Shown here: in pieces, positions 1 to 44,304 of the stretch
How positions within the stretch are numbered: position 1 is the stretch's first letter
How the letters are laid out: each line of letters starts with the position of its first letter
Assembly: GCA_963850905.1 (NCBI GenBank)
Contig: CAWKMU010000004.1
Span: forward strand, 1-64,000
Length of the DNA: 64,000 bases
Direction: 5' to 3'
Source of the DNA: an uncultured Gemmatimonadales bacterium
GTDB lineage: Bacteria; Gemmatimonadota; Gemmatimonadetes; Gemmatimonadales; Gemmatimonadaceae
Notes under the pieces: model-generated
The model's database searches: none
What the model was told of the DNA's origin: nothing
What the model saw: the letters and a program-made list of their open reading frames with translations, nothing else
Made by a program: the position numbers and the translations under genes

Positions 1-1468
1 CCAGAGTCAATCGGTCGTCGCAACGGTTTGTGTGTGTGAGAGTAACAGCTCGTTCAGCGCTTCGGCAGGCGTTCTCCAGCCGAGCGTCTTGCGCGGTCGC
101 GTGTTCAGCGTGAGCGCGACCGCAGCCACATCAGGGGCGTTGTGCGCGCTCAGATCCGTGCCCTTTGGGAAGTACTGCCGCAATAGTCCGTTCGTATTCT
201 CGTTCGTCCCCCGCTGCCAGGGACTCTGCGGATCGCAGAAGTAGACCGCGAGCCCCGTATCAACGCGTAGTTGTGCGTGCTGTGCCATCTCTGCCCCTTG
301 ATCCCACGTCAGCGACCGCCGCAGTTGGGCGGGTAGTGTCTGGATCGCGCGCGTGATCGCATCACGCACCGCCGGAGCACCGTGCCCGGCGAGCGCGGGC
401 CCGTTCTTTGTGTCGGTCGTGCGCGCGCCAGCCGCGTGGCCCCGCATGCGCGGGAGGTGGAGCAGTAGCGTGAAGCGTGTAGTGCGCTCGACCAACGTGC
501 CGATGGCGGAGCTGTCGAGGCCTAGGATCAGATCGCCCTCCCAGTGCCCCGGCACCGCGCGGTCGTCCGCCTCGGCTGGTCGAGCGCTGATCAGCAGGTC
601 GGACGTGACAAAGCCTCTGCCCGCGGCCCGTGTGCGGGCACGCGGCACGCGCAACGCCCGGCCCGTGCGTAAGCAGGCGGTCAGCTCGCGACGGAGCGCG
701 CCGCGGCCCTGGACGTAGAGTGCCTGGTAGATCGCTTCGTGGCTGATGCGCATGGTGGGATCCTCCGGGAAGTCGACGGGGAGCCAATGCGCGATCTGCG
801 CCGGACTCCACGCGCGACCCCATCGCCGGTGCTGCCGACGCCCGTGCCTGCGGCCCCTCCACGGCACCGCCGGCCCGCGCGCCGCCGCGCCGTCCGGCGC
901 CGTGATCACACCCGCGAGGCGGTCCTGCACATACTGCCGGAGCCGCGCGTCTGTCGCCAGCTTCGCCGGCTTCGGGCGGCGGCCCGCCCGGTCGGCGTGC
1001 CACTGCGCCGTGGTCGCACGGTAGTCGAGCGCGCCACCACGGGTCGCCGCATTCCGGCGCAGCTCGCGCGAGATGCTCGAGGGCGCGCGCCCAAGCTGGC
1101 GGGCAATCTCGCGGACGCCGTAGTGGTGGGCGTGGAGGAGCGCCAGCTGCTCGCGCTCGGCGAAGGATAGATAGCGCCCCGACAGCGGCGACGCGGATGG
1201 GGCGAGATGTGACGGCGGCATGCCTCCAGCTTGTCGGAACCAGCGTGCCCCGACCACCCACGAGACTCGCGCATCGGCAACCGCGGTCTCGGAGTAGCAG
1301 CCGCGGGCGATAGCGCCCCAGAACCGCTGCCGGTCCTCACGCCGCCCGACCGGCGGGCGGCCCAGTGAATGCAGCTTGCCACGTCCAGACCGATCCGAGC
1401 GCCGTCGCCTCGGTGCTGTCATCGCAACCTCCTCGGTGAGAGTGTTGCGACGACCAATTGAATCCACC
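1..1468 (-). mobile_element. IS30-family insertion sequence, copy 1 (first base cut by the window edge), nested in an IS3 orfB
   Basis: Near-identical to 33632..35100 and 42712..44180. Subterminal inverted repeats GAGTCAATCGGTCGTCGCAAC / GTTGCGACGACCAATTGAATC. Followed by CAA and the 3' part of IS3. Confidence 0.95.
7..1422 (-). CDS. IS30-family DDE transposase
   Basis: Motifs YLSFAERE, ISRELRRN, PGHWEGDLI, SLTWDQGAEM, SPWQRGTNENTNGLLRQYFPKG. ATG at 1422 has a GAGGAGG RBS. Confidence 0.95.
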   Translation of the reverse strand: MTAPRRRRSDRSGRGKLHSLGRPPVGRREDRQRFWGAIARGCYSETAVADARVSWVVGARWFRQAGGMPPSHLAPSASPLSGRYLSFAEREQLALLHAHHYGVREIARQLGRAPSSISRELRRNAATRGGALDYRATTAQWHADRAGRRPKPAKLATDARLRQYVQDRLAGVITAPDGAAARGPAVPWRGRRHGRRQHRRWGRAWSPAQIAHWLPVDFPEDPTMRISHEAIYQALYVQGRGALRRELTACLRTGRALRVPRARTRAAGRGFVTSDLLISARPAEADDRAVPGHWEGDLILGLDSSAIGTLVERTTRFTLLLHLPRMRGHAAGARTTDTKNGPALAGHGAPAVRDAITRAIQTLPAQLRRSLTWDQGAEMAQHAQLRVDTGLAVYFCDPQSPWQRGTNENTNGLLRQYFPKGTDLSAHNAPDVAAVALTLNTRPRKTLGWRTPAEALNELLLSHTQTVATTD

Positions 1469-1778
1469 CAATATGCCAGTTTTGCGTATCAGCGCCTGCT
1501 CCAGCAAGCTGGGTTCGCCTGCAGTATGAGTCGCGTCGGCGATTGCTGGGATAACGCCGTGGTGGAGAGCTTCTTCGCCACACTCACGAAGGAGCTGCTA
1601 GTCGACGGCCTGTTCGCCACGCGGGCTGAGGCGAGTCGCGTCCTGTTCGAATTCATCGAGATCTGGTACAATCGTCAGCGTCGGCATTCCTCGTTGGGCT
1701 ACCGCACGCCGGCCGAGTTCGAGGAGCAGTTGCAGCAAGTCAGCTAACTCACGTGTCTACGAAATCGGGGCAACTCCA
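1469..1778 (+). mobile_element. IS3-family element, 3' part of copy 1 (orfB C-terminus 1469..1747 and right IR)
   Basis: Encodes QYAS...SMSRVGDCWDNAVVESFFATL...WYNRQRRHSSLGYRTPAEFE. Ends GTGTCTACGAAATCGGGGCAACTCCA. Matches 35101..35410. Confidence 0.92.
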
Positions 1779-1936
1779 GTGAGTCACTTGTCTCGCGTGC
1801 GTGGCTTCGCGCTTCCACGTCTCGCTGCTAACCCCTCGGCAGTATGCGGCACGCAATGTGCTTGACCGCTTGCGACAGCGGTAGCGTGGCGGCGCTGGTC
1901 GGTACGCCGGCGCTCACATCACACTGGAGGAAGACA

Positions 1937-31974: not shown

Positions 31975-32735
31975 CGCTAAGGGCATGCGCTCCATTCGCC
32001 AAGAGCGGGGTGGTTGGTTGCGCACGCTGCGGCGCCGCGCGGAGTGCGTTGGGCAGTCGCGGCGCACCCTCTTGCCGGCCTTGTCGAACGCGTCACCAAT
32101 TCTTCATCCGGTTGTGGCGTGGCATCGACGGCACGCCTGGAAGTGCGGCGGCTAGAGGCGCGGTGGGGTGCGCGCCTGGTGTGCGGAGTGCAGCCATGCA
32201 TGGCACCGGCCGGTGGCTGCGTGGGCGTGGCGGGCGCGCCCGGTGTACATGTGGCGTTGCCGACTGGCCGATTTGCACGCGTCGCCATGAGGCTAGCCGG
32301 CGGCACGCCCATTGCTGCCGCCTGCGCCATCTACGCGTACTGCTCGCCGTCCTGCGCCGTCGCGAATCGGCCGAGTTGTGGCAGGAACTCACCCGTCATC
32401 GGTGCGCCTTATGGACCGCGCCCATCTAGCGAATGAGCCGGCGCTATTCACGGCGTCGGTGCGCGTCATGCGCCAGAGATCGGGCGGCAGTGCACCGCTG
32501 GTCGCGTTCGCGACGCCCACATTGGGACTCAGTGGTCCTTTATGGGCGCTACGTGCAGCCGCGCCCGCGCCTTGCGAGGTGTCTGCGCCGCTCGTGGCCG
32601 CATTGGGCGGCAGCGAGGTGTCCTGGCTCGACACCGACGGCGGGGTAGCGCTCGAGGCTACGCGTGAGGTGTGGTCTTTCCCCGGTTTCGTAGACACCTC
32701 AGTGAGCCCGATTATGTTCGGGCGGGAGGTGTCTC

Positions 32736-33038
32736 ATGGGACGAAGGCGACGGTCATTCACGGCGGAGTTCAAACTCGAGGCCGTGCGATTGGCGAACGA
32801 GTCGGGGCGGCCGCCGGGTGAGATTGCGCGAGATCTGGGCATTCGACCGGACATCCTGCGGCGCTGGCGCGCGCAGCTGGGCGAGTCAGTCCGACGGCCC
32901 GGTGTGGTGGCCACGAGTGGGAAGCTGCTGACGCCGGAGGAGGAGATTCGCCGACTCCAACGTGAGAATGCGCTCCTGCGCGAGGAGCGCGAAATCCTAA
33001 AAAAAGCGACGGCCTTCTTCGCCAAGGATGCACGATGA
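32736..33038 (+). CDS. IS3 OrfA
   Basis: RRSFTAEFKLEAV HTH; leucine zipper ending EILKKATAFF; A7G -1 slippery site at 32999..33006. Confidence 0.93.
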   Translation: MGRRRRSFTAEFKLEAVRLANESGRPPGEIARDLGIRPDILRRWRAQLGESVRRPGVVATSGKLLTPEEEIRRLQRENALLREEREILKKATAFFAKDAR

Positions 33039-33631
33039 GGTTCGTGTTCATCCAAGCGCACGCCCGCATCTATCACATCACGACAATGTGCCGGGTGCTC
33101 CAGGTGTCGAGGGCCGGTTACTACGCCTGGCGTGCGCGGCCGCTCTGTGAGCGCGTGAAAGACGACGTCGTCCTGCGGGAGCGGATTCGGCAGATCCACA
33201 AACAAGTCAAGGGCCGCTATGGCAGTCCACGCGTGCGGATGGAACTCCGGGCGCTCGGGATCCGGTGTGCGAAGAAGCGGGTCGCGCGCCTGATGCGGGT
33301 GGAAGGGCTGCGAGCCAAGAGTGCTCGGCGCTATCGGGTGACAACCAACTCGGATCATGCCCAGCCGGTCGCGAGGAATGTGCTCGATCGGCAATTCTCG
33401 CTCACGAGCAATCCCGAGCCTGATCGGGTGTGGGCGGCTGATCTCACGTACATCCCGACACGGGAAGGCTGGCTCTATCTCGCGGTCATTCTCGACTTGG
33501 CCACGCGCCGGGTCGTCGGCTGGGCGCTGCGCGCGCGGCTCGATCAGGAGCTCGCGCTCAGTGCGCTCCGGATGGCGCTCACGCATCGGGGCGCCCGTGG
33601 CGGTCTGCATCATTCGGATCGCGGAGTGCAA

Positions 33632-35100
33632 CCCAGAGTCAATCGGTCGTCGCAACGGTTTGTGTGTGTGAGAGTAACAGCTCGTTCAGCGCTTCGGCAG
33701 GCGTTCTCCAGCCGAGCGTCTTGCGCGGTCGCGTGTTCAGCGTGAGCGCGACCGCAGCCACATCAGGGGCGTTGTGCGCGCTCAGATCCGTGCCCTTTGG
33801 GAAGTACTGCCGCAATAGTCCGTTCGTATTCTCGTTCGTCCCCCGCTGCCAGGGACTCTGCGGATCGCAGAAGTAGACCGCGAGCCCCGTATCAACGCGT
33901 AGTTGTGCGTGCTGTGCCATCTCTGCCCCTTGATCCCACGTCAGCGACCGCCGCAGTTGGGCGGGTAGTGTCTGGATCGCGCGCGTGATCGCATCACGCA
34001 CCGCCGGAGCACCGTGCCCGGCGAGCGCGGGCCCGTTCTTTGTGTCGGTCGTGCGCGCGCCAGCCGCGTGGCCCCGCATGCGCGGGAGGTGGAGCAGTAG
34101 CGTGAAGCGTGTAGTGCGCTCGACCAACGTGCCGATGGCGGAGCTGTCGAGGCCTAGGATCAGATCGCCCTCCCAGTGCCCCGGCACCGCGCGGTCGTCC
34201 GCCTCGGCTGGTCGAGCGCTGATCAGCAGGTCGGACGTGACAAAGCCTCTGCCCGCGGCCCGTGTGCGGGCACGCGGCACGCGCAACGCCCGGCCCGTGC
34301 GTAAGCAGGCGGTCAGCTCGCGACGGAGCGCGCCGCGGCCCTGGACGTAGAGTGCCTGGTAGATCGCTTCGTGGCTGATGCGCATGGTGGGATCCTCCGG
34401 GAAGTCGACGGGGAGCCGATGCGCGATCTGCGCCGGACTCCACGCGCGACCCCATCGCCGGTGCTGCCGACGCCCGTGCCTGCGGCCCCTCCACGGCACC
34501 GCCGGCCCGCGCGCCGCCGCGCCGTCCGGCGCCGTGATCACACCCGCGAGGCGGTCCTGCACATACTGCCGGAGCCGCGCGTCTGTCGCCAGCTTCGCCG
34601 GCTTCGGGCGGCGGCCCGCCCGGTCGGCGTGCCACTGCGCCGTGGTCGCACGGTAGTCGAGCGCGCCACCACGGGTCGCCGCATTCCGGCGCAGCTCGCG
34701 CGAGATGCTCGAGGGCGCGCGCCCAAGCTGGCGGGCAATCTCGCGGACGCCGTAGTGGTGGGCGTGGAGGAGCGCCAGCTGCTCGCGCTCGGCGAAGGAT
34801 AGATAGCGCCCCGACAGCGGCGACGCGGATGGGGCGAGATGTGACGGCGGCATGCCTCCAGCTTGTCGGAACCAGCGTGCCCCGACCACCCACGAGACTC
34901 GCGCATCGGCAACCGCGGTCTCGGAGTAGCAGCCGCGGGCGATAGCGCCCCAGAACCGCTGCCGGTCCTCACGCCGCCCGACCGGCGGGCGGCCCAGTGA
35001 ATGCAGCTTGCCACGTCCAGACCGATCCGAGCGCCGTCGCCTCGGTGCTGTCATCGCAACCTCCTCGGTGAGAGTGTTGCGACGACCAATTGAATCCACC
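33632..35100 (-). mobile_element. IS30-family insertion sequence, copy 2 (1469 bp)
   Basis: 3-bp TSD CAA (33629..33631 and 35101..35103). Confidence 0.95.
33639..35054 (-). CDS. IS30-family DDE transposase
   Basis: As copy 1, with one visible substitution (AHRLP vs AHWLP). Confidence 0.95.
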   Translation of the reverse strand: MTAPRRRRSDRSGRGKLHSLGRPPVGRREDRQRFWGAIARGCYSETAVADARVSWVVGARWFRQAGGMPPSHLAPSASPLSGRYLSFAEREQLALLHAHHYGVREIARQLGRAPSSISRELRRNAATRGGALDYRATTAQWHADRAGRRPKPAKLATDARLRQYVQDRLAGVITAPDGAAARGPAVPWRGRRHGRRQHRRWGRAWSPAQIAHRLPVDFPEDPTMRISHEAIYQALYVQGRGALRRELTACLRTGRALRVPRARTRAAGRGFVTSDLLISARPAEADDRAVPGHWEGDLILGLDSSAIGTLVERTTRFTLLLHLPRMRGHAAGARTTDTKNGPALAGHGAPAVRDAITRAIQTLPAQLRRSLTWDQGAEMAQHAQLRVDTGLAVYFCDPQSPWQRGTNENTNGLLRQYFPKGTDLSAHNAPDVAAVALTLNTRPRKTLGWRTPAEALNELLLSHTQTVATTD

Positions 35101-35530
35101 CAATATGCCAGTTTTGCGTATCAGCGCCTGCTCCAGCAAGCTGGGTTCGCCTGCAGTATGAGTCGCGTCGGCGATTGCTGGGATAACGCCGTGGTGGAGA
35201 GCTTCTTCGCCACACTCACGAAGGAGCTGCTAGTCGACGGCCTGTTCGCCACGCGGGCTGAGGCGAGTCGCGTCCTGTTCGAATTCATCGAGATCTGGTA
35301 CAATCGTCAGCGTCGGCATTCCTCGTTGGGCTACCGCACGCCGGCCGAGTTCGAGGAGCAGTTGCAGCAAGTCAGCTAACTCACGTGTCTACGAAATCGG
35401 GGCAACTCCAGTGTGCGTAGAGCGCATAATTGCCAATCTATCCTGCTCAACAACAATGCGGTGCCTGACCGCCTCTTCTAACCGATCTCGCTCAATAAGG
35501 CAACGGTTTGCCGAAGACGCCGCGCCTACC

Positions 35531-36160
35531 TCAATTCCTCCGCCGGAGACGCTCGGCATCTAGCTGGGTGGCCTCAAGAAGCCAGGGACGCAATGTCGGG
35601 TCTCGCTGAAGACGCTTACGCGCGCGCCTCAGCTGCGAGCGGACAAGCGCCGAGCTTCGTCCAACGCGGCGAGCAAAATCCCGAACGCGCTCTCCGTCCG
35701 CGATAACGCTCAGGGCGACCTCCTGGAACGATGGCGCGAGCCGCGCACACGCTCGGCGCACGGCAGCGTCGAGCTCCTCTGCGTCAAGGCGTTCACTCGA
35801 GTTGCTCGCCACTGCGAGATTGGGCACGGCGCGAAGCGGTACCCAACGGTCGGACAACGCACTTCCGGGTCGACGGGCGTGACGGCGGGCATCGTACAGG
35901 CGGCTCATCGTTGCCGCCCTGAAGTACGACCCACAGGTCGCGACGTCGATGGCCAGCAGATTTGCATTCACCGCAATGACAATCTCCTGGACGCAGTCCT
36001 CCGCCCGCGGCGCTGACATGTGTCGACGGAGGTATTGCATTGCCACTGCTCGCAATTGCGTCAACAGTTCGGACACAGCCTGATCCCGGCGCGGGCCTCC
36101 ATACACGCGTTGCGCCGTGTCGAGATAGGGAGCGAGCTCGGCAAACGAGCGAGGTGACAT
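35531..36160 (-). CDS. Divergent ECF-type sigma-70 factor
   Basis: Region 2-like AEDCVQE...YF...SRLYDARR; region 4-like FARRVGRSSALVRSQLRRARKRL. Confidence 0.75.
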   Translation of the reverse strand: MSPRSFAELAPYLDTAQRVYGGPRRDQAVSELLTQLRAVAMQYLRRHMSAPRAEDCVQEIVIAVNANLLAIDVATCGSYFRAATMSRLYDARRHARRPGSALSDRWVPLRAVPNLAVASNSSERLDAEELDAAVRRACARLAPSFQEVALSVIADGERVRDFARRVGRSSALVRSQLRRARKRLQRDPTLRPWLLEATQLDAERLRRRN

Positions 36161-36309
36161 TTGACGACCCCCAAAGCGGCGTTGTTGAGAGAACGGCCTC
36201 TCTAGAGAGAATTCTCCCCTCGTGGCGAAAACGTGACATCACACTCGCCGCGACCCGCTTTGCACCTCGAACAGAGACCAATTTCGTCCGGCGTGACTAA
36301 CCGACGGCG

Positions 36310-38112
36310 TCAGCGCTCTACGTCGGGCCTTCCGAGCGCGATCTCACGGACCGCCCGACGCACGCTGTGCATCAGCATTCGCTCTGGTGCGCTAAGCACA
36401 GCACGAAGCGCCGCGACCTCGACTGCTCGGAGTTGAGAGACCATGCCGCGAAGTGTGCTCAGGGTCGGCCCTCGGTTCGAGAATTCCCGATGGCGGGCAC
36501 GCGCAACGGCTGCCGCCCGCTCCGCTTGCTCAACGACTGCCTTCGCCACGTCACGTTCGCTCGCGAGGCAATTGGCTCCCCGGACGTAGGCCTCTCCCGA
36601 CACCACCGCTGCGGAGCGGGCTGTCTCCGATCTCGCGCTCGCGGCCACGGTTCGCTCGAGCGGCCCCAGTTGCTCGGGATCCAGATCGAGCACACGCCAA
36701 GCGTGCGGGCCACCTCGGGCAGCCCGAATGGCGTGAAAGCGATCTAGCGCTCGATCGGGATCGGAGTACACCGTCTCCAAACCCCGACGGAACTCTTGAG
36801 CGAGCACTGACTCACCGCGAACCTGCGGCTCTCCGAGCGTAATCGGCAGCGCTTCGCCTTCCAGTCGTTCGCGTTGGGAATGGAGCGATCGCGTCTCAAG
36901 AGCTCGCTCCGCGTCAATGGCGCGGCTCCCGGCTTCGACGATCGCGCTAGCGACATTGCGTGTGGTCGTCTGCGCGGCTGGAAACACTACCGACCCCAAC
37001 GATCGCCAGCCACGTTGCTCCGTCACCGGCTCCAGTGCCGCCCTGAGCGCCTCGCGCGCCGCTGAAGGAGACGAGTGCGTCGAGATCCGCGTGAACGCTG
37101 CGCGGACCTTTTCCGTATCCGTAACGTCCGGCCACACCTGGCGCAGCGCGCGATCAAAGTCTTGCCACGCGCCGTCGGCTCGCGTGAGGGCCGCGTCCAG
37201 AACGTTGAACCGATGCCGGGCGCCAGCCAGTATGGTCTCCGCCTCCGCCGCTGCACGATCGGCCGCTAGTGCCTGACCATGCTTCGTCACCGCATCACGC
37301 ACTTCCATGATGCGCTCATGATCTGGTGTCGGAGCCCGTGGGACGGGCTCGCCAAATCGTTTGGCAAGCGCTGGCCCCGAGCAGTCAGGTGCCACCTGCG
37401 ACGCGCGCACGTGCCGCTCGCCGTCTGTCACGACTGCACCCCGCTCGCGCGCTTCAACCCACAGCCCGGCCACGTCGAGCCGCTTCGCGAGATCGGCCCA
37501 CGACGTCGCGCGCCGCCAATCGGAGAGCCGCTCACGCGCGCGCTCAAGAAGGGACAGGTCCGGACGCGGTAGAGTGTCGCTGAGCCTGAGCGACGCTGTG
37601 AGTTCCGCCTCGATCGCCGGGGATCGACCGACCGCGGGCGTAAGCCGTCCTGGAATTACACGAAGTCCGAGATTCCGCTCTTCTTCACGCAACACCCGCT
37701 GCGTCACCACCATGTCATGCCACCGGTCCCAGGCCCGGAGCGTGTCAGGATGCACCCGGTTGACCATCACATGGATGTGCGCGTGCGAGCGATCCTTGTG
37801 CGCGACCAGCAAGGCCTGGTGTTCCGACAGCTTATGAGCCGCGAGGACCCGATCCACAATCCGTTCCATGTCTGACCGCGAAACGGCGTCCCTCCGGTCA
37901 AAGGAGAGCACGAAGTGATACACGGGGTGCTGCACTCGACGATTCTGAGCGGCCGTCTCGCGCATGATTTTCCCAGCCAACTCGATATCTTCGGTCGGGA
38001 GATTGCGCTCCGCGCTCCAGTCGACGCGACCGAGCTCTTCTCCGGACCGGCCGAGACGAAGATAGGCCGCCAATCCGCGGAAGCTCGCTCCGCTACTCGA
38101 CACTGAAATCAC
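36310..38112 (-). CDS. Relaxase (MobA/VirD2-like, MOB-P type)
   Basis: SFRGLAAYL (motif I Tyr), VYHFVLSF (motif II), HKDRSHAHIHVMVNRVHP (HUH motif III). Confidence 0.92.
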   Translation of the reverse strand: MISVSSSGASFRGLAAYLRLGRSGEELGRVDWSAERNLPTEDIELAGKIMRETAAQNRRVQHPVYHFVLSFDRRDAVSRSDMERIVDRVLAAHKLSEHQALLVAHKDRSHAHIHVMVNRVHPDTLRAWDRWHDMVVTQRVLREEERNLGLRVIPGRLTPAVGRSPAIEAELTASLRLSDTLPRPDLSLLERARERLSDWRRATSWADLAKRLDVAGLWVEARERGAVVTDGERHVRASQVAPDCSGPALAKRFGEPVPRAPTPDHERIMEVRDAVTKHGQALAADRAAAEAETILAGARHRFNVLDAALTRADGAWQDFDRALRQVWPDVTDTEKVRAAFTRISTHSSPSAAREALRAALEPVTEQRGWRSLGSVVFPAAQTTTRNVASAIVEAGSRAIDAERALETRSLHSQRERLEGEALPITLGEPQVRGESVLAQEFRRGLETVYSDPDRALDRFHAIRAARGGPHAWRVLDLDPEQLGPLERTVAASARSETARSAAVVSGEAYVRGANCLASERDVAKAVVEQAERAAAVARARHREFSNRGPTLSTLRGMVSQLRAVEVAALRAVLSAPERMLMHSVRRAVREIALGRPDVER

Positions 38113-38142
38113 ACGCGGTCCGGTCTTCGGATTCGAGCCCGA

Positions 38143-38460
38143 TTACAGGCGAGCAATCGCGTCCAGCGTCGCCTGATAGACCGCGGTGAGAAGGACGACC
38201 TGGTTGTCGTCGCCCTTTGGCGTCATCGATCGCAACAGTCGTCGAAGATCGGTCGCGATGCGCCCGAGCTCGTACACCGCCCAGGCCTGGTGGGCGCGCC
38301 GGCGACCGTGAGGTGTCGCTCGGAGCGCCGCTCGCCGCACGTATTCCGAAACCGAGATGCCGCATTCGGAGGCGTACGCAGCAATGCGCGCCCACTCCTC
38401 CGGGCGCCAGCGATGGTCTGTGCGCCGTGTGCGGCGCGCGGGTCGTGTGGCGTTTGGCAA
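38143..38460 (-). CDS. mobC: MobC-like ribbon-helix-helix relaxosome accessory protein
   Basis: RWRPEEWARIAAYASECGISVSEYVRRAAL...ELGRIA; immediately upstream of the relaxase. Confidence 0.8.
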   Translation of the reverse strand: MPNATRPARRTRRTDHRWRPEEWARIAAYASECGISVSEYVRRAALRATPHGRRRAHQAWAVYELGRIATDLRRLLRSMTPKGDDNQVVLLTAVYQATLDAIARL

Positions 38461-38799
38461 CGGGGTCTCTCGATTGATCGTTGTGCTCGAGACCTGAGAC
38501 GACGTCTTCGTCACCCCACGACCAGCATCGAACAGGCCAACAACAAGGGATCTCGTGAGCGAGCCCCTTCTACTACATACGATGGAATCGTGCAAAGCGT
38601 GCCTGATGTCACGGAAAGCGGTAGAGGAGAGACTCCTGAGATAGACGCTGAAAAGCACTCGACCTTTGACACTCTCCCACCGGCGCCTGGGCACATGAGC
38701 GAGTCCGACAGGGCAGATCTTCTCCATCCACCACGCTCTCCTCCGACGGCGGTAGCATTTGGCGAGCATGTCCGCAGTCCGCACGACCCCGTGGCGGTC

Positions 38800-40017
38800 A
38801 TGTCAACGACGGCCGACGCCCTCTATCAGTTCTTCGAACCGATGGAATTCACGCTGGTGGCAATGCTCCGCATCCTCTACGCGCAATCGTGCAGGAAAGG
38901 CCGCATCGTGCCACCCGTCCCACCTGGCGAGGAAGTCACGCTGGACGTCAAGGATGACGAGCTCGCCGCCCGCCTACACTGCTCGCTCAATGCGATCAGC
39001 GCGATGCGTCGGTCGATCCAGCACGGCGTCTCGCCAGTCGCCGTACTCGTGCGCAGCGTCACTCCGGTGACACGCCAGTACGGATCCCTCACCGCGGTCC
39101 ATTGCTGGCGCTGGGTCTTCTACGACGTGGACCCCGAACTCACGCCTCAACTCGTGGAGCACGCCCATATGTTGGCGCTGGCACGAGCGACTCGACTCCG
39201 AGGCAGGGGTCGGCGTGTGACGATTGGCATAACTCTCGAAGGACGCCGCGCGGAGCTCGTGCGACAGCGCTCGGCGAAACACGCACCGAAAGAGCGGGGC
39301 GCCGAGCAGGACACCAGGACCCGGGATGCGGGCGGACCGTCGGCCGTCCACCACCGTCGCGCGTACCCGGACCGCCCGGGCGCCGTCCCGCCGTCCGCGG
39401 CACCACCATCAGGTGCCGTCACGGGCGCACGATCAGGTGCCGCCGCGTCGCCAGGACCAGGTGCCGCTCGGGCTCCTGTTCTCGAAGCCCGATCCCCAAC
39501 TACGAACCACATGTACGTCACAAGCTGTGGAATACAAGAGCATGTAAAAGAACATGTAGTTCGAGCCGCACGAGCCACGCGTGCCCCCCGTGCACACCCG
39601 AGAGCAACCCGCGGCGGCGTGCGACGAACCGAGGCTGCCGGACGATACGGCGACTATCGGCGGGTCCTCATGGCGAACGCCGGAGCGAGTCGTGCCGACC
39701 TCGCCGATTTTGAGGGCTTCCTCGAACGCTACGTTCAAGCGCTTCGGCCAGGGAAGGGTCAGTTAGCGTGGCCACAATACCGGGGATTTTTTCGCCATTG
39801 GAAAAAGCTCGGGGACGCGCGAGCAACGGGCATCGCAGCGACTGTGCTTGAGCGCGTCCGCGAAGGAAGCGTGCGGTCGCCAGACGCCTATTTGATGGCC
39901 GAGCTGCAACGCTGCGCTGCGCTCGCGGTTGGGAGGGCGGATTCGTCCGCGCATTGGATGGCGCGTGAGCTCACTGCGCGCCCGCACCCGTCGGCAGCGA
40001 GGGACGAGGCGCCATGA
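38800..40017 (+). CDS. Putative replication initiator (N-terminal wHTH, linker with repeats); start uncertain
   Basis: DDELAARLHCSLNAISAMRR HTH-like; C-terminal VRSPDAYL. Lies between the mob genes and xis/int. Confidence 0.5.
   Translation: MSTTADALYQFFEPMEFTLVAMLRILYAQSCRKGRIVPPVPPGEEVTLDVKDDELAARLHCSLNAISAMRRSIQHGVSPVAVLVRSVTPVTRQYGSLTAVHCWRWVFYDVDPELTPQLVEHAHMLALARATRLRGRGRRVTIGITLEGRRAELVRQRSAKHAPKERGAEQDTRTRDAGGPSAVHHRRAYPDRPGAVPPSAAPPSGAVTGARSGAAASPGPGAARAPVLEARSPTTNHMYVTSCGIQEHVKEHVVRAARATRAPRAHPRATRGGVRRTEAAGRYGDYRRVLMANAGASRADLADFEGFLERYVQALRPGKGQLAWPQYRGFFRHWKKLGDARATGIAATVLERVREGSVRSPDAYLMAELQRCAALAVGRADSSAHWMARELTARPHPSAARDEAP
39408..39466 (+). repeat. Three AYCAGGTGCCG direct repeats with exact 24-bp period
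   Basis: Copies at 39408, 39432 and 39456, followed by an A-rich tract at 39501..39560. Confidence 0.8.
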
Positions 40018-40289
40018 CGAATCGAAGATCCGCCAGTTCTTCTCGCGCCCGACACGCACCCGCGCCCACGATTCCCGTGTATGTGTGCCGTATCCTGGAC
40101 GCCGCGCGGCAGGGGTTTGCCCGGCGCGGAAAGGTGACCGCCGTTGAAGTCTGGCACGATGCGTACTGCAAGCTCCTACACGGGCGCGGCCCGTGCAATT
40201 GCGATCCCGACATTGTGTTCGCCTACAACGACGGGCGGCGCGCTGATGCCCCACCAATGAAAGCGGCCAACAATGGGGCGCCAGCATGA
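40014..40289 (+). CDS. Small protein with HDxxC...CxC putative Zn site
   Basis: VWHDAYC...GPCNCDPDI; ATGA overlap with the upstream gene. Confidence 0.6.
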   Translation: MTNRRSASSSRARHAPAPTIPVYVCRILDAARQGFARRGKVTAVEVWHDAYCKLLHGRGPCNCDPDIVFAYNDGRRADAPPMKAANNGAPA

Positions 40290-40756
40290 ACCCGGTCGCG
40301 TTCAGCATCGCGAAGCGAGCCGCGTCGTCTGTCTCCATTTGCTACTACGAGAAGGAAGGACTGGGCGGCGTGCCGCCCGCCTGGCTGGAGTGCACCGAGC
40401 CCCTTTGCCCATTCGGTGACACGGGGACAGCGGACGCAAAGGGTCGCTCGGGCCAAGTGGCTCTGGCGCTCCCTTCCAGGGTATCGAGACCAGCCGAGCG
40501 CAATCCTTTAGCTAGTACGCCCTTCCACGCAAGCGGAGCAGAAGTTAGCGTGGCGACCCCGGCCAGATCGACGAACGAGACAAATCTCCCGTCCGGAGTG
40601 GTAGGGCTTCTGGCGTCGATGGCTCGAGCTGAAGTCGCGCCACATTGATGCGGGTGCGGGGCGCTTCGCCGACATCCTGGCGACGGAGATAGTCGTGGGG
40701 CGACGGGCAGTGAGTAGAGATCTGGCTCACTAGGAGGCCGCCTGAGCTCGACAGCG

Positions 40757-41266
40757 TTGGCTCCTTTCACGCTAGCCCAGCTACCAGGCGTTTGGCTCGA
40801 GCGCGCTGATCTACTCGAGCGACACGGTGCCGCACCGCACGCCACTGCGTTGCGCGTCGCGGTCGCTGAGCTCGAGCAAGCGCTGACGAACCGCGCTGGG
40901 TCCATTGGCCGGACTGAGCAGCCGACGCACTCGTCGACGGTACCACCGGAAATCACATGGCGCGAGCGTTTGTGGCTCGTACCCGATGAGACACGTCTGG
41001 GCGTGCGTGAGGTCGCGGAGGCGATGGGTCGATCAACGCACTATGTCCATTGCCACACCGCGGCGGGTGGGGATGGCTTCCGTCTTCCACACCGAAAGGT
41101 CGACGGGCGCCTCGTATTCACGGCGGGCAGCGTACGCAACTGGATCCAGCAATCGGAGTGTGTTATCTCCTCTGGCGTTCCCCTGCCCCTTCGGCTGAGC
41201 GGCACGCCGGTCCGTCGCACGCGGATGCACTCTGCTCGTGGGGGTTCCATTACCACCGGAGCCTAG
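40757..41266 (+). CDS. Excisionase-like HTH protein
   Basis: LGVREVAEAMGRS...LPHRKVDGRLVF...VRNWI; directly upstream of the integrase. Confidence 0.7.
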   Translation: MAPFTLAQLPGVWLERADLLERHGAAPHATALRVAVAELEQALTNRAGSIGRTEQPTHSSTVPPEITWRERLWLVPDETRLGVREVAEAMGRSTHYVHCHTAAGGDGFRLPHRKVDGRLVFTAGSVRNWIQQSECVISSGVPLPLRLSGTPVRRTRMHSARGGSITTGA

Positions 41267-41279
41267 AAGGAGATCCCCA

Positions 41280-42506
41280 ATGCGAAGGAAGCGACGACTC
41301 ACTGGACTCGAGCGCCGTGGAGATGGCTATCGGGTCCGCATTCGGATTGGTGGCAAACGCGAGAGTGTCACTGCCGCCACGACCGACCGGCGCACCGCCA
41401 TTGCTTTGATCGAGCAACGCATTGCGGAGCTCGAGCGAGACGCGGAGTGGGAGCGAGTCAGCGCTGCGCTGGGTCAGGTCACGAAGCGTCGCATGCGTGA
41501 GCTCTTCCAGTGGTTCGAGGAGACGCACGTCCCGGCGCTAGCACCGGGAGCTCAGGCGTCATATCGCGACAGCCTGCGCCCGCTCCGCGCCTACTTCGTC
41601 GACACGATCGACAATCCGCTCGCCGATTCGATCGAGGGACGCCACGTAGACGACTATCTGGCGTGGCGGCGCGTGCATTGGCTCGGCGCAGAGCGAAAGC
41701 TTAAGAACACGCCGAAGGCAACGGGCGACACTGCACAGCCAGCTGAGAAGCCCGCGCCGCGTCCGGTCAGCAACCGGACGCTGGCGAAGGATCGGGCCGT
41801 TCTGCATCGCGTCTTCAGGTTGGCCAAGAAGCGTCGGGAGGTTACGCACAACCCAGTCACCGACACCGAGAAGCCGAAAGCGGATCCCCGCAATCCGGTC
41901 ATTTTGAGCGATGACCAGTTCGAGGCGCTGCTCAAGGCGATTGGTGATCGCCCGATGCTCAAGCTGTACGCGCTCATGCTGAACGAAACCGGCATGCGCT
42001 GCGAGTCCGAAGTCCTGTGGCTCCACTGGGGCGACGTCTCGTTCGACGGCGGAAGCATCACCGTCGTGAGTGGTCGCGGTGGGCATTGGACGAAGAGCGG
42101 CAAAGGTCGCGTGGTACCAATGACGCCGCGGCTCGTGGCGGCGCTCCGCGAGCACTTCGCACGGTTCCGCTTCAACGTCGCCGACTCACCGTGGATCTTC
42201 TTTCACCAGTTCACCGGCCGGCGCTTCAGCACCGGCGCTCGGATCGCATCACTCCGCGAAGGGTTCCACGCCGCAGCGCGACGGGCGAAGTTACCGCTCG
42301 AGTTTCGGCAACACGATCTTAGGCACCGCCGAGTGACGACGTGGCTCGCCGCGGAGAAGTCGCCGGTCAAGGTGATGAAGGCGCTGGGGCACTCCGATCT
42401 CAAGGTGACGATGGGGTACTACAGCTTTGTGTCGGACGACCTCAAGTCACTCGTCGAGTCGTGTCCGACGCCTCAGCACCTGCGCGAGACAGCGAGCAGC
42501 GCGTGA
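41280..42506 (+). CDS. Tyrosine recombinase/integrase
   Basis: ETGMR, TKSGK, HDLRH, LGHS, TMGY (catalytic R-K-H-R-H-Y set present); N-terminal arm-binding-like domain; AAGGAG RBS. Confidence 0.95.
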   Translation: MRRKRRLTGLERRGDGYRVRIRIGGKRESVTAATTDRRTAIALIEQRIAELERDAEWERVSAALGQVTKRRMRELFQWFEETHVPALAPGAQASYRDSLRPLRAYFVDTIDNPLADSIEGRHVDDYLAWRRVHWLGAERKLKNTPKATGDTAQPAEKPAPRPVSNRTLAKDRAVLHRVFRLAKKRREVTHNPVTDTEKPKADPRNPVILSDDQFEALLKAIGDRPMLKLYALMLNETGMRCESEVLWLHWGDVSFDGGSITVVSGRGGHWTKSGKGRVVPMTPRLVAALREHFARFRFNVADSPWIFFHQFTGRRFSTGARIASLREGFHAAARRAKLPLEFRQHDLRHRRVTTWLAAEKSPVKVMKALGHSDLKVTMGYYSFVSDDLKSLVESCPTPQHLRETASSA

Positions 42507-42516
42507 TTCGATCCGA

Positions 42517-42539
42517 ATGGGACCACGGATGGGACCACG
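42517..42539 (+). repeat. Tandem ATGGGACCACG direct repeat (candidate integrase arm-type sites)
   Basis: Two perfect 11-mers separated by 1 bp, between the integrase stop and the tRNA. Confidence 0.65.
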
Positions 42540-42593
42540 CCACCCCACACGGCGTCCCCCGAACGATGTATCTTGTACTGCAGCAACACCTTG

Positions 42594-42678
42594 GGAGGGC
42601 TGGCAGAATGGCTAATGCACCGGTCTTGAAAACCGGCGGGCCGGAAGGCCCTTGCAGGTTCGAATCCTGCGCCCTCCG
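42594..42678 (+). tRNA. tRNA-Ser(TGA)
   Basis: Acceptor GGAGGGC/GCCCTCC; anticodon arm CCGGT-CTTGAAA-ACCGG; long variable arm; T arm GCAGG-TTCGAAT-CCTGC. CCA is not encoded. Confidence 0.97.
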
Positions 42679-42711
42679 TTGAACCTGCGCCATTCCGACT
42701 GACGAGGAGAG

Positions 42712-44180
42712 CCCAGAGTCAATCGGTCGTCGCAACGGTTTGTGTGTGTGAGAGTAACAGCTCGTTCAGCGCTTCGGCAGGCGTTCTCCAGCCGAGCGTC
42801 TTGCGCGGTCGCGTGTTCAGCGTGAGCGCGACCGCAGCCACATCAGGGGCGTTGTGCGCGCTCAGATCCGTGCCCTTTGGGAAGTACTGCCGCAATAGTC
42901 CGTTCGTATTCTCGTTCGTCCCCCGCTGCCAGGGACTCTGCGGATCGCAGAAGTAGACCGCGAGCCCCGTATCAACGCGTAGTTGTGCGTGCTGTGCCAT
43001 CTCTGCCCCTTGATCCCACGTCAGCGACCGCCGCAGTTGGGCGGGTAGTGTCTGGATCGCGCGCGTGATCGCATCACGCACCGCCGGAGCACCGTGCCCG
43101 GCGAGCGCGGGCCCGTTCTTTGTGTCGGTCGTGCGCGCGCCAGCCGCGTGGCCCCGCATGCGCGGGAGGTGGAGCAGTAGCGTGAAGCGTGTAGTGCGCT
43201 CGACCAACGTGCCGATGGCGGAGCTGTCGAGGCCTAGGATCAGATCGCCCTCCCAGTGCCCCGGCACCGCGCGGTCGTCCGCCTCGGCTGGTCGAGCGCT
43301 GATCAGCAGGTCGGACGTGACAAAGCCTCTGCCCGCGGCCCGTGTGCGGGCACGCGGCACGCGCAACGCCCGGCCCGTGCGTAAGCAGGCGGTCAGCTCG
43401 CGACGGAGCGCGCCGCGGCCCTGGACGTAGAGTGCCTGGTAGATCGCTTCGTGGCTGATGCGCATGGTGGGATCCTCCGGGAAGTCGACGGGGAGCCGAT
43501 GCGCGATCTGCGCCGGACTCCACGCGCGACCCCATTGCCGGTGCTGCCGACGCCCGTGCCTGCGGCCCCTCCACGGCACCGCCGGCCCGCGCGCCGCCGC
43601 GCCGTCCGGCGCCGTGATCACACCCGCGAGGCGGTCCTGCACATACTGCCGGAGCCGCGCGTCTGTCGCCAGCTTCGCCGGCTTCGGGCGGCGGCCCGCC
43701 CGGTCGGCGTGCCACTGCGCCGTGGTCGCACGGTAGTCGAGCGCGCCACCACGGGTCGCCGCATTCCGGCGCAGCTCGCGCGAGATGCTCGAGGGCGCGC
43801 GCCCAAGCTGGCGGGCAATCTCGCGGACGCCGTAGTGGTGGGCGTGGAGGAGCGCCAGCTGCTCGCGCTCGGCGAAGGATAGATAGCGCCCCGACAGCGG
43901 CGACGCGGATGGGGCGAGATGTGACGGCGGCATGCCTCCAGCTTGTCGGAACCAGCGTGCCCCGACCACCCACGAGACTCGCGCATCGGCAACCGCGGTC
44001 TCGGAGTAGCAGCCGCGGGCGATAGCGCCCCAGAACCGCTGCCGGTCCTCACGCCGCCCGACCGGCGGGCGGCCCAGTGAATGCAGCTTGCCACGTCCAG
44101 ACCGATCCGAGCGCCGTCGCCTCGGTGCTGTCATCGCAACCTCCTCGGTGAGAGTGTTGCGACGACCAATTGAATCCACC
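42712..44180 (-). mobile_element. IS30-family insertion sequence, copy 3 (1469 bp)
   Basis: 3-bp TSD GAG (42709..42711 and 44181..44183). Confidence 0.95.
42719..44134 (-). CDS. IS30-family DDE transposase
   Basis: As copy 2, with one visible substitution (HRQWG vs HRRWG). Confidence 0.95.
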   Translation of the reverse strand: MTAPRRRRSDRSGRGKLHSLGRPPVGRREDRQRFWGAIARGCYSETAVADARVSWVVGARWFRQAGGMPPSHLAPSASPLSGRYLSFAEREQLALLHAHHYGVREIARQLGRAPSSISRELRRNAATRGGALDYRATTAQWHADRAGRRPKPAKLATDARLRQYVQDRLAGVITAPDGAAARGPAVPWRGRRHGRRQHRQWGRAWSPAQIAHRLPVDFPEDPTMRISHEAIYQALYVQGRGALRRELTACLRTGRALRVPRARTRAAGRGFVTSDLLISARPAEADDRAVPGHWEGDLILGLDSSAIGTLVERTTRFTLLLHLPRMRGHAAGARTTDTKNGPALAGHGAPAVRDAITRAIQTLPAQLRRSLTWDQGAEMAQHAQLRVDTGLAVYFCDPQSPWQRGTNENTNGLLRQYFPKGTDLSAHNAPDVAAVALTLNTRPRKTLGWRTPAEALNELLLSHTQTVATTD

Positions 44181-44304
44181 GAGGACACAAATAGCACCTT
44201 CGGTGCAGTAGCGTCACCCCGGCGCGCCTGCGTATGTCGTGAACGGGGCGGGCCCGCGCGTGGAGACGCCCGCCTGCCTGTTCGCCAGGCAATCGAGGTG
44301 GAGC

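What the first reader, a model, noticed from the sequence alone, without database searches (positions are those of the whole stretch)
33611..44189. An IS30-family element that appears to target the catalytic-motif codons of IS3 transposases
Seen: copy 2 sits at CAT TCG GAT CGC GGA GTG [CAA] TAT GCC AGT, which encodes H-S-D-R-G-V-Q-Y-A-S, the second catalytic Asp motif of IS3 OrfB. Copy 1 has the same right junction. Copy 3, in unrelated non-coding DNA after tRNA-Ser, sits at CAT TCC GAC TGA CGA GGA [GAG] GAC ACA AAT. Aligned on the 3-bp TSD, 11 of the 18 upstream bases match in the same orientation. Within the first nine bases the only mismatches fall at third-codon positions (CAT TCN GAY). 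Established: IS30 members use long degenerate targets, and the N-terminal HTH of IS30 transposase is implicated in target choice; this transposase carries such an extra N-terminal GRP/HTH segment. Inference: the element reads an asymmetric, wobble-tolerant target (CATTCNGAY-N9) equal to the most conserved codons of IS3-type DDE enzymes. It would thus parasitize, disable and possibly hitch-hike in other IS, with copy 3 as an off-target mimic. Only two independent sites are visible, so this is a strong hint rather than proof.
Basis: partly seen in the sequence, partly recalled or inferred. Interest (0 to 1): 0.85.

Follow-up and report, generated by a model that had tools for sequence, protein, structure and literature searches.

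The report
IS30-type element that hunts IS3 transposase genes
A 1.5-kb jumping gene of the IS30 family lands, here and in relatives from many bacterial phyla, at one particular codon inside the catalytic core of the transposase gene of a different jumping-gene family (IS3), so it is a mobile element that specifically targets and disables other mobile elements.

Summary

**This genome.** The 1469-bp IS30-family element has 3-bp target duplications. It splits the only two IS3-family orfB genes found in the assembly, at ...H-H-S-D-R-G-V-[Q]|Y-A-S. Two further loci carry copies at sites that weakly mimic this target.

**Other genomes.** I scanned with patterns taken only from inside the element.
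- In genome contigs, 71 of 113 assessable elements abut the same codon. For 57 of 114 junction-flank views, Pfam places the junction at one rve-domain position.
- In metagenome contigs, 80 of 124 junctions abut it.
- In plasmids, 6 of 8 regions read do so.

The 71 host flanks are all different at 90% nucleotide identity, so these are many independent events. Both orientations occur (93:58).

**Target.** The consensus is CAY-NNN-GAY-CNN-GGN-NNN-[CAR]-TAY. Third-codon positions vary freely. It has no dyad symmetry and does not resemble the element's ends. In five other genomes, 12 of 30 Q-Y/F-type rve genes were occupied against 0 of 31 other types.

**Open points.** How the site is recognised, perhaps by an extra N-terminal helix-turn-helix, is inferred. 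Hitch-hiking on IS3 is not shown.

**Prior work.** Eight literature searches found no description. Earlier notes of this scan record E. coli IS30 at a different spot in IS3-family elements.

The parts
33632..35100 (-). IS30-family element, copy 2 (1469 bp), inside the IS3 orfB gene
   Evidence: Self-BLAST and exact extents. The transposase matches NF033563 at 2.9e-70, plus HTH_38 and rve.
33639..35054 (-). IS30-family transposase gene of copy 2 (ATG at 35054; the open frame runs on to 35099 at the element's tip)
33632..33656 (.). Terminal inverted repeat distal to the transposase start (IRR), CCCAGAGTCAATCGGTCGTCGCAAC
   Evidence: The core TCAATYGGTCGTCGCAAC is shared with the other end.
35076..35100 (.). 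Terminal inverted repeat next to the transposase start (IRL). Its reverse complement is GGTGGATTCAATTGGTCGTCGCAAC.
   Evidence: This end is conserved in relatives and was used as the scan pattern.
33629..33631 (+). Left copy of the 3-bp target duplication CAA (Gln codon of HSDRGVQ)
35101..35103 (+). Right copy of the 3-bp target duplication CAA
33608..33631 (+). Target half-site CATCATTCGGATCGCGGAGTGCAA (H-H-S-D-R-G-V-Q). It has the top PWM score in the genome.
   Evidence: score 26.4, ranks 1-2 of 8.97 million.
32669..33631 (+). IS3-family host element, left part: orfA 32736-33038 and the orfB N-terminal part 33035-33631
   Evidence: (PF01527; HTH_21 plus rve profile 2-77).
35104..35413 (+). 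IS3-family host element, right part: orfB C-terminal part (reads QYASFAY...DNAVVESFF from 35101, stop at 35379) and the right end
1..1468 (-). IS30-family element, copy 1. Its first base lies on the preceding contig. It sits in a second IS3 copy at the identical position.
   Evidence: contig C3 ends ...GGAGTGCAA+C.
1472..1781 (+). Right part of the second IS3 copy (identical to 35104-35413)
42712..44180 (-). IS30-family element, copy 3, in non-coding DNA 33 nt after tRNA-Ser. TSD GAG at 42709-42711 and 44181-44183.
   Evidence: One soil-metagenome contig joins 42708 to 44181, which is the empty site.
42688..42711 (+). Off-target half-site CGCCATTCCGACTGACGAGGAGAG, a weak mimic of the IS3 motif
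   Evidence: score -1.6; p = 1.4e-3 against all 24-mers of contig C4.
42594..42678 (+). tRNA-Ser(TGA) upstream of copy 3

Best explanation
The element belongs to a widespread clade of IS30-family insertion sequences. Their ends read GGTGGATTCAA....TCGT.GCAAC. Their transposase is about 470 aa, with two N-terminal helix-turn-helix modules and a DDE core.

This clade chooses its insertion site by DNA sequence. The preferred site is an asymmetric stretch of about 24-27 bp, CAY-NNN-GAY-CNN-GGN-NNN-[CAR]-TAY. This stretch encodes H-x-D-x-G-x-Q-Y, the region of the second catalytic Asp in IS3-family OrfB transposases. The element joins on either side of the Gln codon and duplicates it as a 3-bp TSD. 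It can enter in either orientation. The insertion separates the second Asp from the Glu of the host transposase and so inactivates that IS3 copy.

The conserved bases of the site are the non-wobble positions of a motif that IS3 elements cannot change. The same site is therefore available in any bacterium that carries such IS3 elements, and it costs the cell nothing when hit.

In this genome both IS3 copies are occupied. The remaining copies sit at two loci that only partly resemble the site.

**Shown:** the site, its recurrence, the independence of events, both orientations, the TSD, and family membership.

**Inferred:** copy-out-paste-in transposition through a circle (from the family); recognition by the transposase's N-terminal DNA-binding region; and any advantage to the element.
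For: **(1) This genome**
- Both junctions, the 3-bp TSDs and four fully assembled copies at 99.86% identity or more.
- The transposase matches the IS30 family at 237 bits against a cut-off of 80.
- The host is an IS3-type element with orfA PF01527 and orfB HTH_21 plus rve, cut at rve profile position 77.
- Only two IS3 orfB genes are present and both are occupied.

**(2) Relatives in the same family and order**
- Homologous elements at 70-78% nt identity in G044, G017, G079, G006 and G003 abut HHTDRGSQ|QYAS, HHSDQGSQ|QYTS and similar sequences.

**(3) Genome-contig scan with an IS-internal pattern**
- It gave 121 junction views, of which 116 were assessable: 47 sense xHSDxGxQ, 25 antisense Q-[YF], 44 other.
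- Pfam on 114 flank translations gave 37 that end in rve at profile position 75-77 exactly at the junction, and 20 that start rve_3 at residue 15.
- After removing double views there are 113 assessable elements: 45 A, 26 B, 42 other.
- The 71 host flanks form 71 clusters at 90% identity and 60 at 80%. There are 65 distinct IS-cluster/host-cluster pairs.
- The TSD is identical in 30 of 40 full-element views.

**(4) Replication**
- Metagenome contigs: 48 A, 32 B and 44 other of 124 assessable junctions.
- Plasmids: 6 of 8 regions read lie at HHSDxGxQ|QY, with PGAP calling the flanks 'IS3 family transposase' or 'integrase core domain'.

**(5) Specificity within rve genes**
- In five other genomes I read 70 rve_3 matches. 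Twelve of 30 Q-[YF]-type genes were occupied, against 0 of 31 DNGxEF, RDRDxKY or TDNAxAY types (Fisher p = 5e-5).

**(6) DNA-level recognition**
- Third-codon positions vary among occupied sites: -16 is C41/T14, -10 is C39/T17, -4 takes all four bases, +3 is A28/G24.
- The two off-target sites in this genome score above random 24-mers (p = 1.4e-3 and 3.1e-4, combined 2.5e-5).
- Non-rve mimic sites L041 and L049 carry GAY-CNN-GGG.

**(7) Specificity belongs to the element**
- A nested, 100%-supported alphaproteobacterial sub-clade uses a different, REP-like target.

**(8) Recent activity**
- One soil-metagenome contig shows the exact empty site of copy 3.
Against: - About 35-37% of junctions are not at the motif (42 of 113; 44 of 124). 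Most off-motif sites for which both flanks are known do not resemble it.
- In this genome many unoccupied sites score higher on the left-half matrix than the two off-target sites that were used. Examples are C3:3057880 at 25.6, and 521 sites at 8 or above. The matrix mixes protein-driven conservation with real recognition, so the true determinants are not defined.
- 18 of 30 Q-type rve genes in the five-genome census are unoccupied. They include six copies of one IS3 in a genome that carries the IS30 clade.
- CAA at the duplicated codon is also common in unoccupied copies, so no wobble preference can be claimed.
They sampled only elements that match my end pattern. Copies within a genome and related genomes are not independent.
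- No transposition intermediate or circle junction was seen, though only contigs were available.
- The structural model is poor (mean pLDDT 50).
Confidence: 0.9

Rival explanations
1. Target specificity is real, but its match to the IS3 motif is incidental. The transposase simply prefers a degenerate GC-rich sequence (GAYC..GG....CAR TAY). IS3 orfB happens to be the most abundant carrier of that sequence. There is no adaptation to parasitise, disable or ride on IS3.
For: - Off-motif and non-rve mimic sites are used (L041, L049, and copies 3 and 4 here).
- Sister lineages target palindromic REP-like repeats, as is usual for the family.
- Hitch-hiking and any fitness effect are untested.
Against: - The conserved positions of occupied sites coincide codon for codon with the non-wobble bases over eight codons.
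- The preference persists across a clade spread over at least five phyla.
- Higher-scoring chance matches in this genome are unused, while both IS3 sites are used.
Confidence: 0.25
2. Insertion is more or less random, and selection keeps only copies that landed in dispensable DNA such as other insertion sequences.
For: Insertions in other mobile elements are harmless and are commonly enriched in genomes (general knowledge).
Against: - Selection cannot explain the same codon, rve profile position 75-77, in 57 Pfam-verified flanks from 71 different host sequences.
- It also cannot explain 0 of 31 insertions in equally dispensable non-Q rve genes.
Confidence: 0.02
3. One ancient insertion into an ancestral IS3 was inherited as a composite IS3::IS30 unit. 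That unit then diversified and spread, so the recurrence is common descent and not repeated targeting.
For: - In this genome the two IS3::IS30 composites are nearly identical. They differ at 4 of 1273 positions in the IS3 part and 1 of 1469 in the IS30 part (Fisher p = 0.19).
- No intact IS3 copy remains. These two could therefore be one event that was copied.
Against: - Both orientations occur, even within one IS30 cluster at 90% identity or more (L064/L129, L098/L110, L138/L143, L132/L134).
- Host flanks are far more diverse than the inserted elements.
- Intact and occupied IS3 genes coexist in the same genomes.
- The same IS30 elements also lie outside IS3 with their own TSDs.
- A split orfB cannot move its own element.
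Confidence: 0.03

Closest known systems
IS30 of Escherichia coli (prototype of the family)
   Same: Same transposase family, 2-3 bp TSD, and long specific targets. IS30 is described as having dual target specificity, for hot-spot sequences and for its own inverted repeats, and as moving through joined-end circles or dimers (PMC9333248: abstract and passages read).
   Different: IS30 hot spots are nearly palindromic (PMC9333248 passage). The site here shows no dyad symmetry (my reading of the base counts). It also shows no likeness to the element's ends: 355 of 500 shuffles score as high. The site is a coding motif of another IS family. Earlier notes of this scan (e1-019857, e1-005720; not tested here) say E. 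coli IS30 repeatedly sits near the frameshift site of IS3-family elements, which is a different spot.
Tn7 TnsD / attTn7
   Same: The target selector reads a highly conserved protein-coding sequence, the glmS active-site region. The conserved bases are the non-wobble positions, which gives a site present in almost any host (PMC2918618: passages read).
   Different: Tn7 uses a separate selector protein and inserts about 25 bp downstream, sparing glmS. Here a single transposase is encoded, insertion is inside the recognised motif, and it destroys the gene. That is tolerable because the gene belongs to another mobile element.
ISLxc3 / ISLxx5 of Leifsonia xyli (IS30 family)
   Same: Similar ends (GGCGGATTCTAGTGGTCGTTGCAACA) and length (1511 bp), in Actinobacteria (PMC2516522: passages read).
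   Different: The authors report that they failed to detect a conserved target. No link to IS3 is described, and I did not examine those copies.
IS110/IS1111-family elements that insert into features of other mobile elements (for example the ends of Tn21-type transposons) or into REP sequences
   Same: Insertion sequences whose preferred targets are repeated or mobile DNA. The examples are recalled from memory. For 10.1101/2024.04.26.591405 and PMC12288879 I saw only search listings and the start of the abstracts.
   Different: They use a DEDD transposase with RNA-guided site choice and target non-coding sites. Here the transposase is a DDE enzyme, no guide is evident, and the target is a coding motif.
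Homing endonucleases and inteins at conserved active-site codons
   Same: They follow the same logic of aiming at codons that cannot change, while tolerating synonymous variation (recalled; no call).
   Different: They restore gene function by splicing. This element does not.

Membership tests
IS30 family (the element) | Transposase matching the family model | tested here: met
   NF033563 at 2.9e-70, 237 bits against a cut-off of 80. Also HTH_38 at 2e-16 and rve.
IS30 family (the element) | Single long ORF between terminal inverted repeats of about 20-30 bp; length 1.0-2.5 kb | tested here: met
   1469 bp. One ORF at 33639-35054 or 35099. The ends share the 18-bp core TCAATYGGTCGTCGCAAC.
IS30 family (the element) | Target duplication of 2-3 bp | tested here: met
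   CAA, GAG and CAA at copies 2, 3 and 4. Identical 3-bp TSD in 30 of 40 full-element views elsewhere.
IS30 family (the element) | Transposition through joined ends (circle or dimer) | not testable with these tools
   Only assembled contigs of public runs were available, and no end-to-end joint was listed.
IS30-type 'hot spot' targeting (nearly palindromic site) | Dyad symmetry of the target around the duplication | tested here: not met
   By my inspection, the base counts of 56 left and 42 right half-sites show no complementary pattern. Insertion nevertheless occurs in both orientations.
IS30-type inverted-repeat targeting | Target resembles the element's own end | tested here: not met
   The best column similarity of the end profile to the target profile was reached by 355 of 500 shuffles.
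IS3 family (the host element) | orfA (HTH) followed by orfB with an HTH_21 plus rve core | tested here: met
   PF01527 at 1.8e-16; HTH_21 at 4e-17 and rve at 7.8e-16. In other genomes the flanks match rve, rve_3 and rve_2. PGAP names them 'IS3 family transposase'.
IS3 family (the host element) | TG...CA ends, 3-4 bp duplication, programmed -1 frameshift | tested here: inconclusive
   The ends read TGG...CCA with GTG on both sides in both copies. The frameshift signal was not examined.
Tn7-like site-specific transposons | Separate target-selector protein and multi-protein transposase | tested here: not met
   The element is occupied almost end to end by one long transposase frame. The small overlapping ORFs were not examined.

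The most novel reading that the evidence does not exclude
This IS30 clade is a dedicated hyperparasite of IS3-family elements. An extra N-terminal helix-turn-helix of its transposase reads the non-wobble bases of the H-x-D-x-G-x-Q-Y codons. This gives the element a harmless landing site that exists in any host with IS3 elements and that travels on IS3-rich plasmids. At the same time it knocks out a competitor's transposase. Switching this reader domain would explain how sister lineages moved to REP-like targets.
Probability: 0.4. Interest if true: 0.85.

Novelty: new variant of a known kind. Interest (0 to 1): 0.8.

Why it matters
It shows one insertion-sequence lineage systematically aiming at the catalytic-core codons of another family's transposase gene, in Gemmatimonadota, Actinomycetota, Alpha- and Betaproteobacteria, Deinococcota and Rokubacteria.

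- It gives a natural, sequence-defined model for how a single-protein DDE transposase reads an asymmetric target, which is an open point for the IS30 family.
- It is an example of conflict or parasitism between mobile elements that may limit IS3 activity in genomes.
- It explains many 'split IS3 transposase / integrase core domain' pseudogene annotations in public records.
- The wobble-tolerant use of an unchangeable coding motif parallels Tn7/glmS and homing endonucleases, but the outcome for the target gene is the opposite.
- A compact, host-independent, site-specific DDE insertion system may also interest genome engineers.

Tried and rejected
- **Likeness of the target to the element's ends (IR-mimic targeting).** None was found.
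- **Palindromic target.** None was seen in the base counts.
- **Preference for CAA over CAG at the duplicated codon.** I dropped this claim because unoccupied IS3 genes also use CAA.
- **Filled/empty pair L183 versus L188.** The occupied copy has IS3 sequence on one side only and is probably rearranged, so it is not a clean pair.
- **Order of events for the two IS3::IS30 composites here.** The question was independent hits against copying of the composite. With 4 of 1273 against 1 of 1469 differences (p = 0.19), it stays undecided.
- **Residues that distinguish the sub-clade with another target.** I found 10 columns, 7 of them at residues 76-205, from only three sequences. This is a weak lead only.
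- **Pfam on the N-terminal 95 residues.** No family matched.
- **Structure prediction.** Mean pLDDT was 50, so only the two N-terminal three-helix modules are usable, and I ran no fold search.
- **Sequencing runs.** No RNA holder is listed. All four runs laid are contigs, so starts, ends and circle junctions cannot be judged.
- **Literature.** Searches returned no paper describing IS30-family targeting of the IS3 orfB motif. Subscription papers (Olasz 1998; Nagy 2004; Kiss 2007) and ISfinder/TnPedia could not be read.
- **Reference errors.** The coordinates were corrected.

Full report
**What is in the window**

The window is the start of contig C4 of a 4.49-Mb, six-contig assembly with 64% G+C. 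A 1469-bp element occurs three times in the window, at 1-1468, 33632-35100 and 42712-44180. It occurs once more on contig C3 at 14734-16202. All copies are at least 99.86% identical.

Its single long frame lies on the window's minus strand (33639-35054, open up to 35099). The frame matches the NCBIfam IS30 transposase model at 237 bits against a cut-off of 80, and Pfam HTH_38 and rve. The ends share the core TCAATYGGTCGTCGCAAC. Each fully assembled copy has a 3-bp direct duplication: CAA for copy 2, GAG for copy 3 and CAA for the C3 copy.

Copy 1 is cut by the contig start. Contig C3 ends ...CATTCGGATCGCGGAGTGCAA plus the element's first base. Copy 1 therefore has the same two junctions as copy 2.

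**The host of copies 1 and 2**

The host is an IS3-type element of about 1.27 kb. Its orfA matches PF01527. Its orfB matches HTH_21 plus rve, and the rve match stops at profile position 77 of 102 exactly at the junction.

The N-terminal part ends ...LHHSDRGVQ. The C-terminal part resumes QYASFAY...DNAVVESFF. From recalled knowledge of the family, the insertion separates the second catalytic Asp from the Glu.

The assembly holds only these two IS3 orfB genes, at different chromosomal places, and both are occupied. The two composites differ at 4 clustered positions in the IS3 part and at 1 position in the insert. I cannot tell two independent hits from copying of a composite (p = 0.19).

**Is the position special? 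Evidence from elsewhere**

Homologous elements at 70-78% nt identity in five relatives of the same family or order already showed the same neighbours, for example HHTDRGSQ|...|QYAS and HHSDQGSQ|...|QYTS.

*Genome-contig scan.* I scanned the genome-contig collection with a pattern made only of bases inside the element (GGTGGATTCAANNNNTCGTNGCAAC).

- There were 121 distinct junction views, of which 116 had enough outside flank.
- 47 flanks read x-H-S-D-x-G-x-Q in frame towards the end, 25 read Q-[YF]... away from it, and 44 were otherwise.
- I sent 114 flank translations to Pfam by reference. 37 ended in rve at profile position 75-77 at their last residue. 20 began rve_3 at residue 15, plus rve_2. 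Four of these 57 fall below the curated cut-off because the fragments are short.
- Three symmetric elements had been seen from both ends. After removing these double views, 113 assessable elements split into 45 A, 26 B and 42 other.
- The 71 IS3-type flanks are all different at 90% nucleotide identity and form 60 clusters at 80%. The inserts form 84 clusters at 90%, and there are 65 distinct insert/host cluster pairs.
- Identical 3-bp duplications flank 30 of 40 full-element views. Several of the other ten differ only as CAG against CAA.

*Replication.* A slightly different pattern on metagenome contigs gave 48 A, 32 B and 44 other of 124 assessable junctions.

Among the 25 best plasmid matches to the transposase I read eight regions. 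Six lie at HHSDxGxQ|QY:
- Deinococcus aetherius NZ_AP026561.1
- Bradyrhizobium barranii NZ_CP088101.1
- Rhizobium sp. 007 NZ_CP064191.1
- Sulfitobacter sp. SK025 NZ_CP025811.1
- Rhodovastum atsumiense NZ_OW485602.1
- Bradyrhizobium ottawaense NZ_CP150477.1

Two lie elsewhere (Methylorubrum extorquens DM4 p1METDI and Mesorhizobium sp. L-2-11). Two of the eight had been picked because IS3 was already annotated under the match. Of the six picked without that label, four are at the motif.

**Which rve genes are hit**

In five other genomes that carry such elements I read the motif region of 70 rve_3 matches.

| Class | Count |
|---|---|
| Element end directly before a Q-Y codon pair (occupied) | 12 |
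| D-x-G-x-Q-[YF] type, intact or decayed, unoccupied | 18 |
| Other types (DNGxEF, RDRDxKY, TDNAxAY and the like), none occupied | 31 |
| Unreadable | 9 |

Occupancy of 12 of 30 against 0 of 31 gives Fisher p = 5e-5. The caveat is that copies within a genome are not independent and that some genomes were chosen because they hold an insertion.

**The target at base level**

Base counts come from 56 left and 42 right half-sites.

- Invariant or nearly so: C-18, A-17 (His); G-12, A-11 (Asp); G-6, G-5 (Gly); C+1, A+2 (Gln, the duplicated codon); T+4, A+5 (Tyr).
- C at -9 occurs in 47 of 56 sites.
- Third-codon positions vary: -16 is C41/T14, -10 is C39/T17, -4 takes all four bases, +3 is A28/G24.
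- The Ser codon may be TCN, AGC, ACC or GCG.

The consensus is thus CAY-NNN-GAY-CNN-GGN-NNN-[CAR]-TAY. I see no dyad symmetry in these counts. A profile comparison finds no likeness to the element's ends (355 of 500 shuffles score as high).

I cannot separate bases that the transposase reads from bases that are conserved because the protein needs them. CAA is also common in unoccupied genes. In this genome 521 sites score 8 or more on the left-half matrix, yet the off-target copies used weaker ones.

Even so, the matrix ranks the two IS3 sites first and second of 8.97 million 24-mers. The two off-target sites here score above random DNA: p = 1.4e-3 for CGCCATTCCGACTGACGAGGAGAG after tRNA-Ser, and p = 3.1e-4 for CACCGATGCGATCACCGGATACAA in an alanine-racemase C-terminal remnant. 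Combined, with a factor of two for the two flanks, p = 2.5e-5.

Two mimic sites elsewhere without an rve match (L041, L049) also carry GAY-CNN-GGG. Most other off-motif sites do not resemble the target.

**Orientation**

Both orientations occur, even within one insert cluster at 90% identity or more. Pooled counts are 93 with the transposase gene co-directional with orfB against 58 opposite (p = 0.0055). This is a mild bias. The copies here are of the minority type.

At the alanine-racemase locus the assembly has the element in one orientation (C3). The end of contig C4, a 92% paralogue or strain variant, runs into the other end of the element. A soil-metagenome contig joins that other end to the far flank with TSD TTG. 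The same off-target site therefore seems to have been used in both orientations, or the element was inverted in place.

**The specificity belongs to the element**

In a tree of 28 transposases the IS3-associated elements are spread over the whole clade. A 100%-supported alphaproteobacterial sub-clade nested among them always lies in a different, palindromic REP-like repeat. Other recurrent off-motif targets in metagenomes are palindromic too.

Ten alignment columns separate that sub-clade from the IS3-associated sequences. Seven of them lie at residues 76-205, upstream of the catalytic core. With only three sequences this is no more than a lead.

All transposases share a conserved N-terminal segment (SPGRP...FW..IA.G.S.E.AA...GVS..VG.RWFR..GG) before HTH_38. 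Pfam has no model for it. A low-confidence AlphaFold model (mean pLDDT 50) draws it as a three-helix module (residues 28-64, block pLDDT 57-73) in front of the HTH_38 module (residues 87-123, block pLDDT 63-81). That an N-terminal HTH of IS30 helps choose hot-spot targets is my recollection of Nagy et al. 2004 and Kiss et al. 2007, which I could not read.

**Activity and context**

One 163-nt contig of a soil-metagenome run joins 42708 to 44181, which is the exact empty site of copy 3. It has only 23 letters on the shorter side, so the evidence is weak. Other runs reproduce the IS3 junctions.

The IS3::IS30 copy 2 lies beside a relaxase gene (36310-38112) and a tyrosine-integrase gene (41238-42506) next to tRNA-Ser. 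It is therefore probably inside an integrated mobilisable element.

**Mechanism, with its status**

*Shown:* the element is a member of the IS30 family. It makes a 3-bp duplication of the Gln codon. It is found at one position of IS3-type orfB in dozens of independent hosts, in either orientation, and this splits the catalytic core.

*Inferred from the family* (PMC9333248, abstract and passages): copy-out-paste-in through joined ends, with the joined ends attacking the target.

*Inferred here:* the site is read as double-stranded DNA by the transposase's N-terminal region. A two-fold symmetric transpososome could then dock on an asymmetric site either way round.

*Speculative:* benefit through a universal safe site, spread with IS3-rich plasmids, or suppression of a competitor.

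**Comparison with what is known**

IS30 itself has long specific targets, but they are near-palindromic hot spots or its own ends. Both features were tested here and are not met.

Tn7's TnsD reads conserved glmS codons in which only wobble positions vary (PMC2918618 passages). The logic is the same, but Tn7 uses a separate selector protein and spares the gene.

For Leifsonia ISLxc3, which has similar ends, the authors found no target (PMC2516522 passages).

Earlier notes of this scan (e1-019857, e1-005720; untested) record E. coli IS30 at a fixed spot near the frameshift site of IS3-family elements. An affinity of IS30 relatives for IS3 elements may therefore be broader, but that is a different site.

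Eight full-text searches returned no description of the present site.

**Verdict**

I file this as a new variant of a known kind, a site-specific IS30-family element with an unusual and biologically pointed target.

Noticed in passing
window 36310-42678: Between copies 2 and 3 lie a MobA/VirD2-type relaxase gene (36310-38112, minus strand), an unassigned 575-aa ORF, and a tyrosine-recombinase gene (41238-42506) directly before tRNA-Ser. This looks like an integrated mobilisable element that hosts the IS3::IS30 composite.
   Followed up: partly
window 25951-27918 (minus strand); second copy near G000:C3:3503790: A 655-aa protein with an rve core (PF00665 at 3.7e-11) is present in two copies in the genome. 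A 251-aa ORF without a Pfam match lies upstream of it. It is another, unidentified transposon-like unit. Its rve motif is not occupied by the IS30 element.
   Followed up: partly
G000:C3:13708-16230 and the end of contig C4 (C4:712688-713697): A truncated alanine-racemase C-terminal remnant (PF00842 at 2.1e-9) carries the IS30 element in one orientation on C3. Its 92% paralogue or strain variant at the end of C4 runs into the opposite end of the element. One metagenome contig supports the opposite orientation with TSD TTG. The contig ends suggest C3 and C4 join through IS30 copies into one chromosome.
   Followed up: partly
loci L045, L071, L082, L097, L114 (also L293, L341): An alphaproteobacterial sub-clade of the same IS30 group always sits in a REP-like non-coding repeat (...AGCCATCGCGCAGGGAAGGCCGGG|...) that contains long inverted repeats. 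This is a derived switch of target.
   Followed up: partly
loci L268/L287/L361 and L246/L347 (metagenome contigs): These are two further recurrent off-motif targets. Both are short perfect palindromes (CGCCCGGCTTGACCGGGCG and CTGCACAGGTTGCAACCTGTGCAG types), the classical kind of IS30-family target.
   Followed up: no
locus L148; locus L128: One element lies elsewhere in an IS3 orfB, about 54 residues after HTH_21, at ...VAFVLDA. One abuts AIWDDGSQ, which looks like the homologous motif of a non-IS3 DDE gene. These are possible secondary targets in rve genes.
   Followed up: no
window 35055-35099 and the left tips of most related elements: The transposase reading frame stays open right to the first or second base of the element (VDSxGRRNT... 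or WIQxVVAT...). It is not in frame with orfB when co-directional. Whether this matters for expression from the joined-end junction or from read-through is unknown.
   Followed up: no
window 32669 and 35413; G000:C3:3652285 and window 1781: Both IS3 copies are flanked by GTG on both sides. Either the IS3 prefers GTG as a 3-bp target or these bases belong to the element.
   Followed up: no
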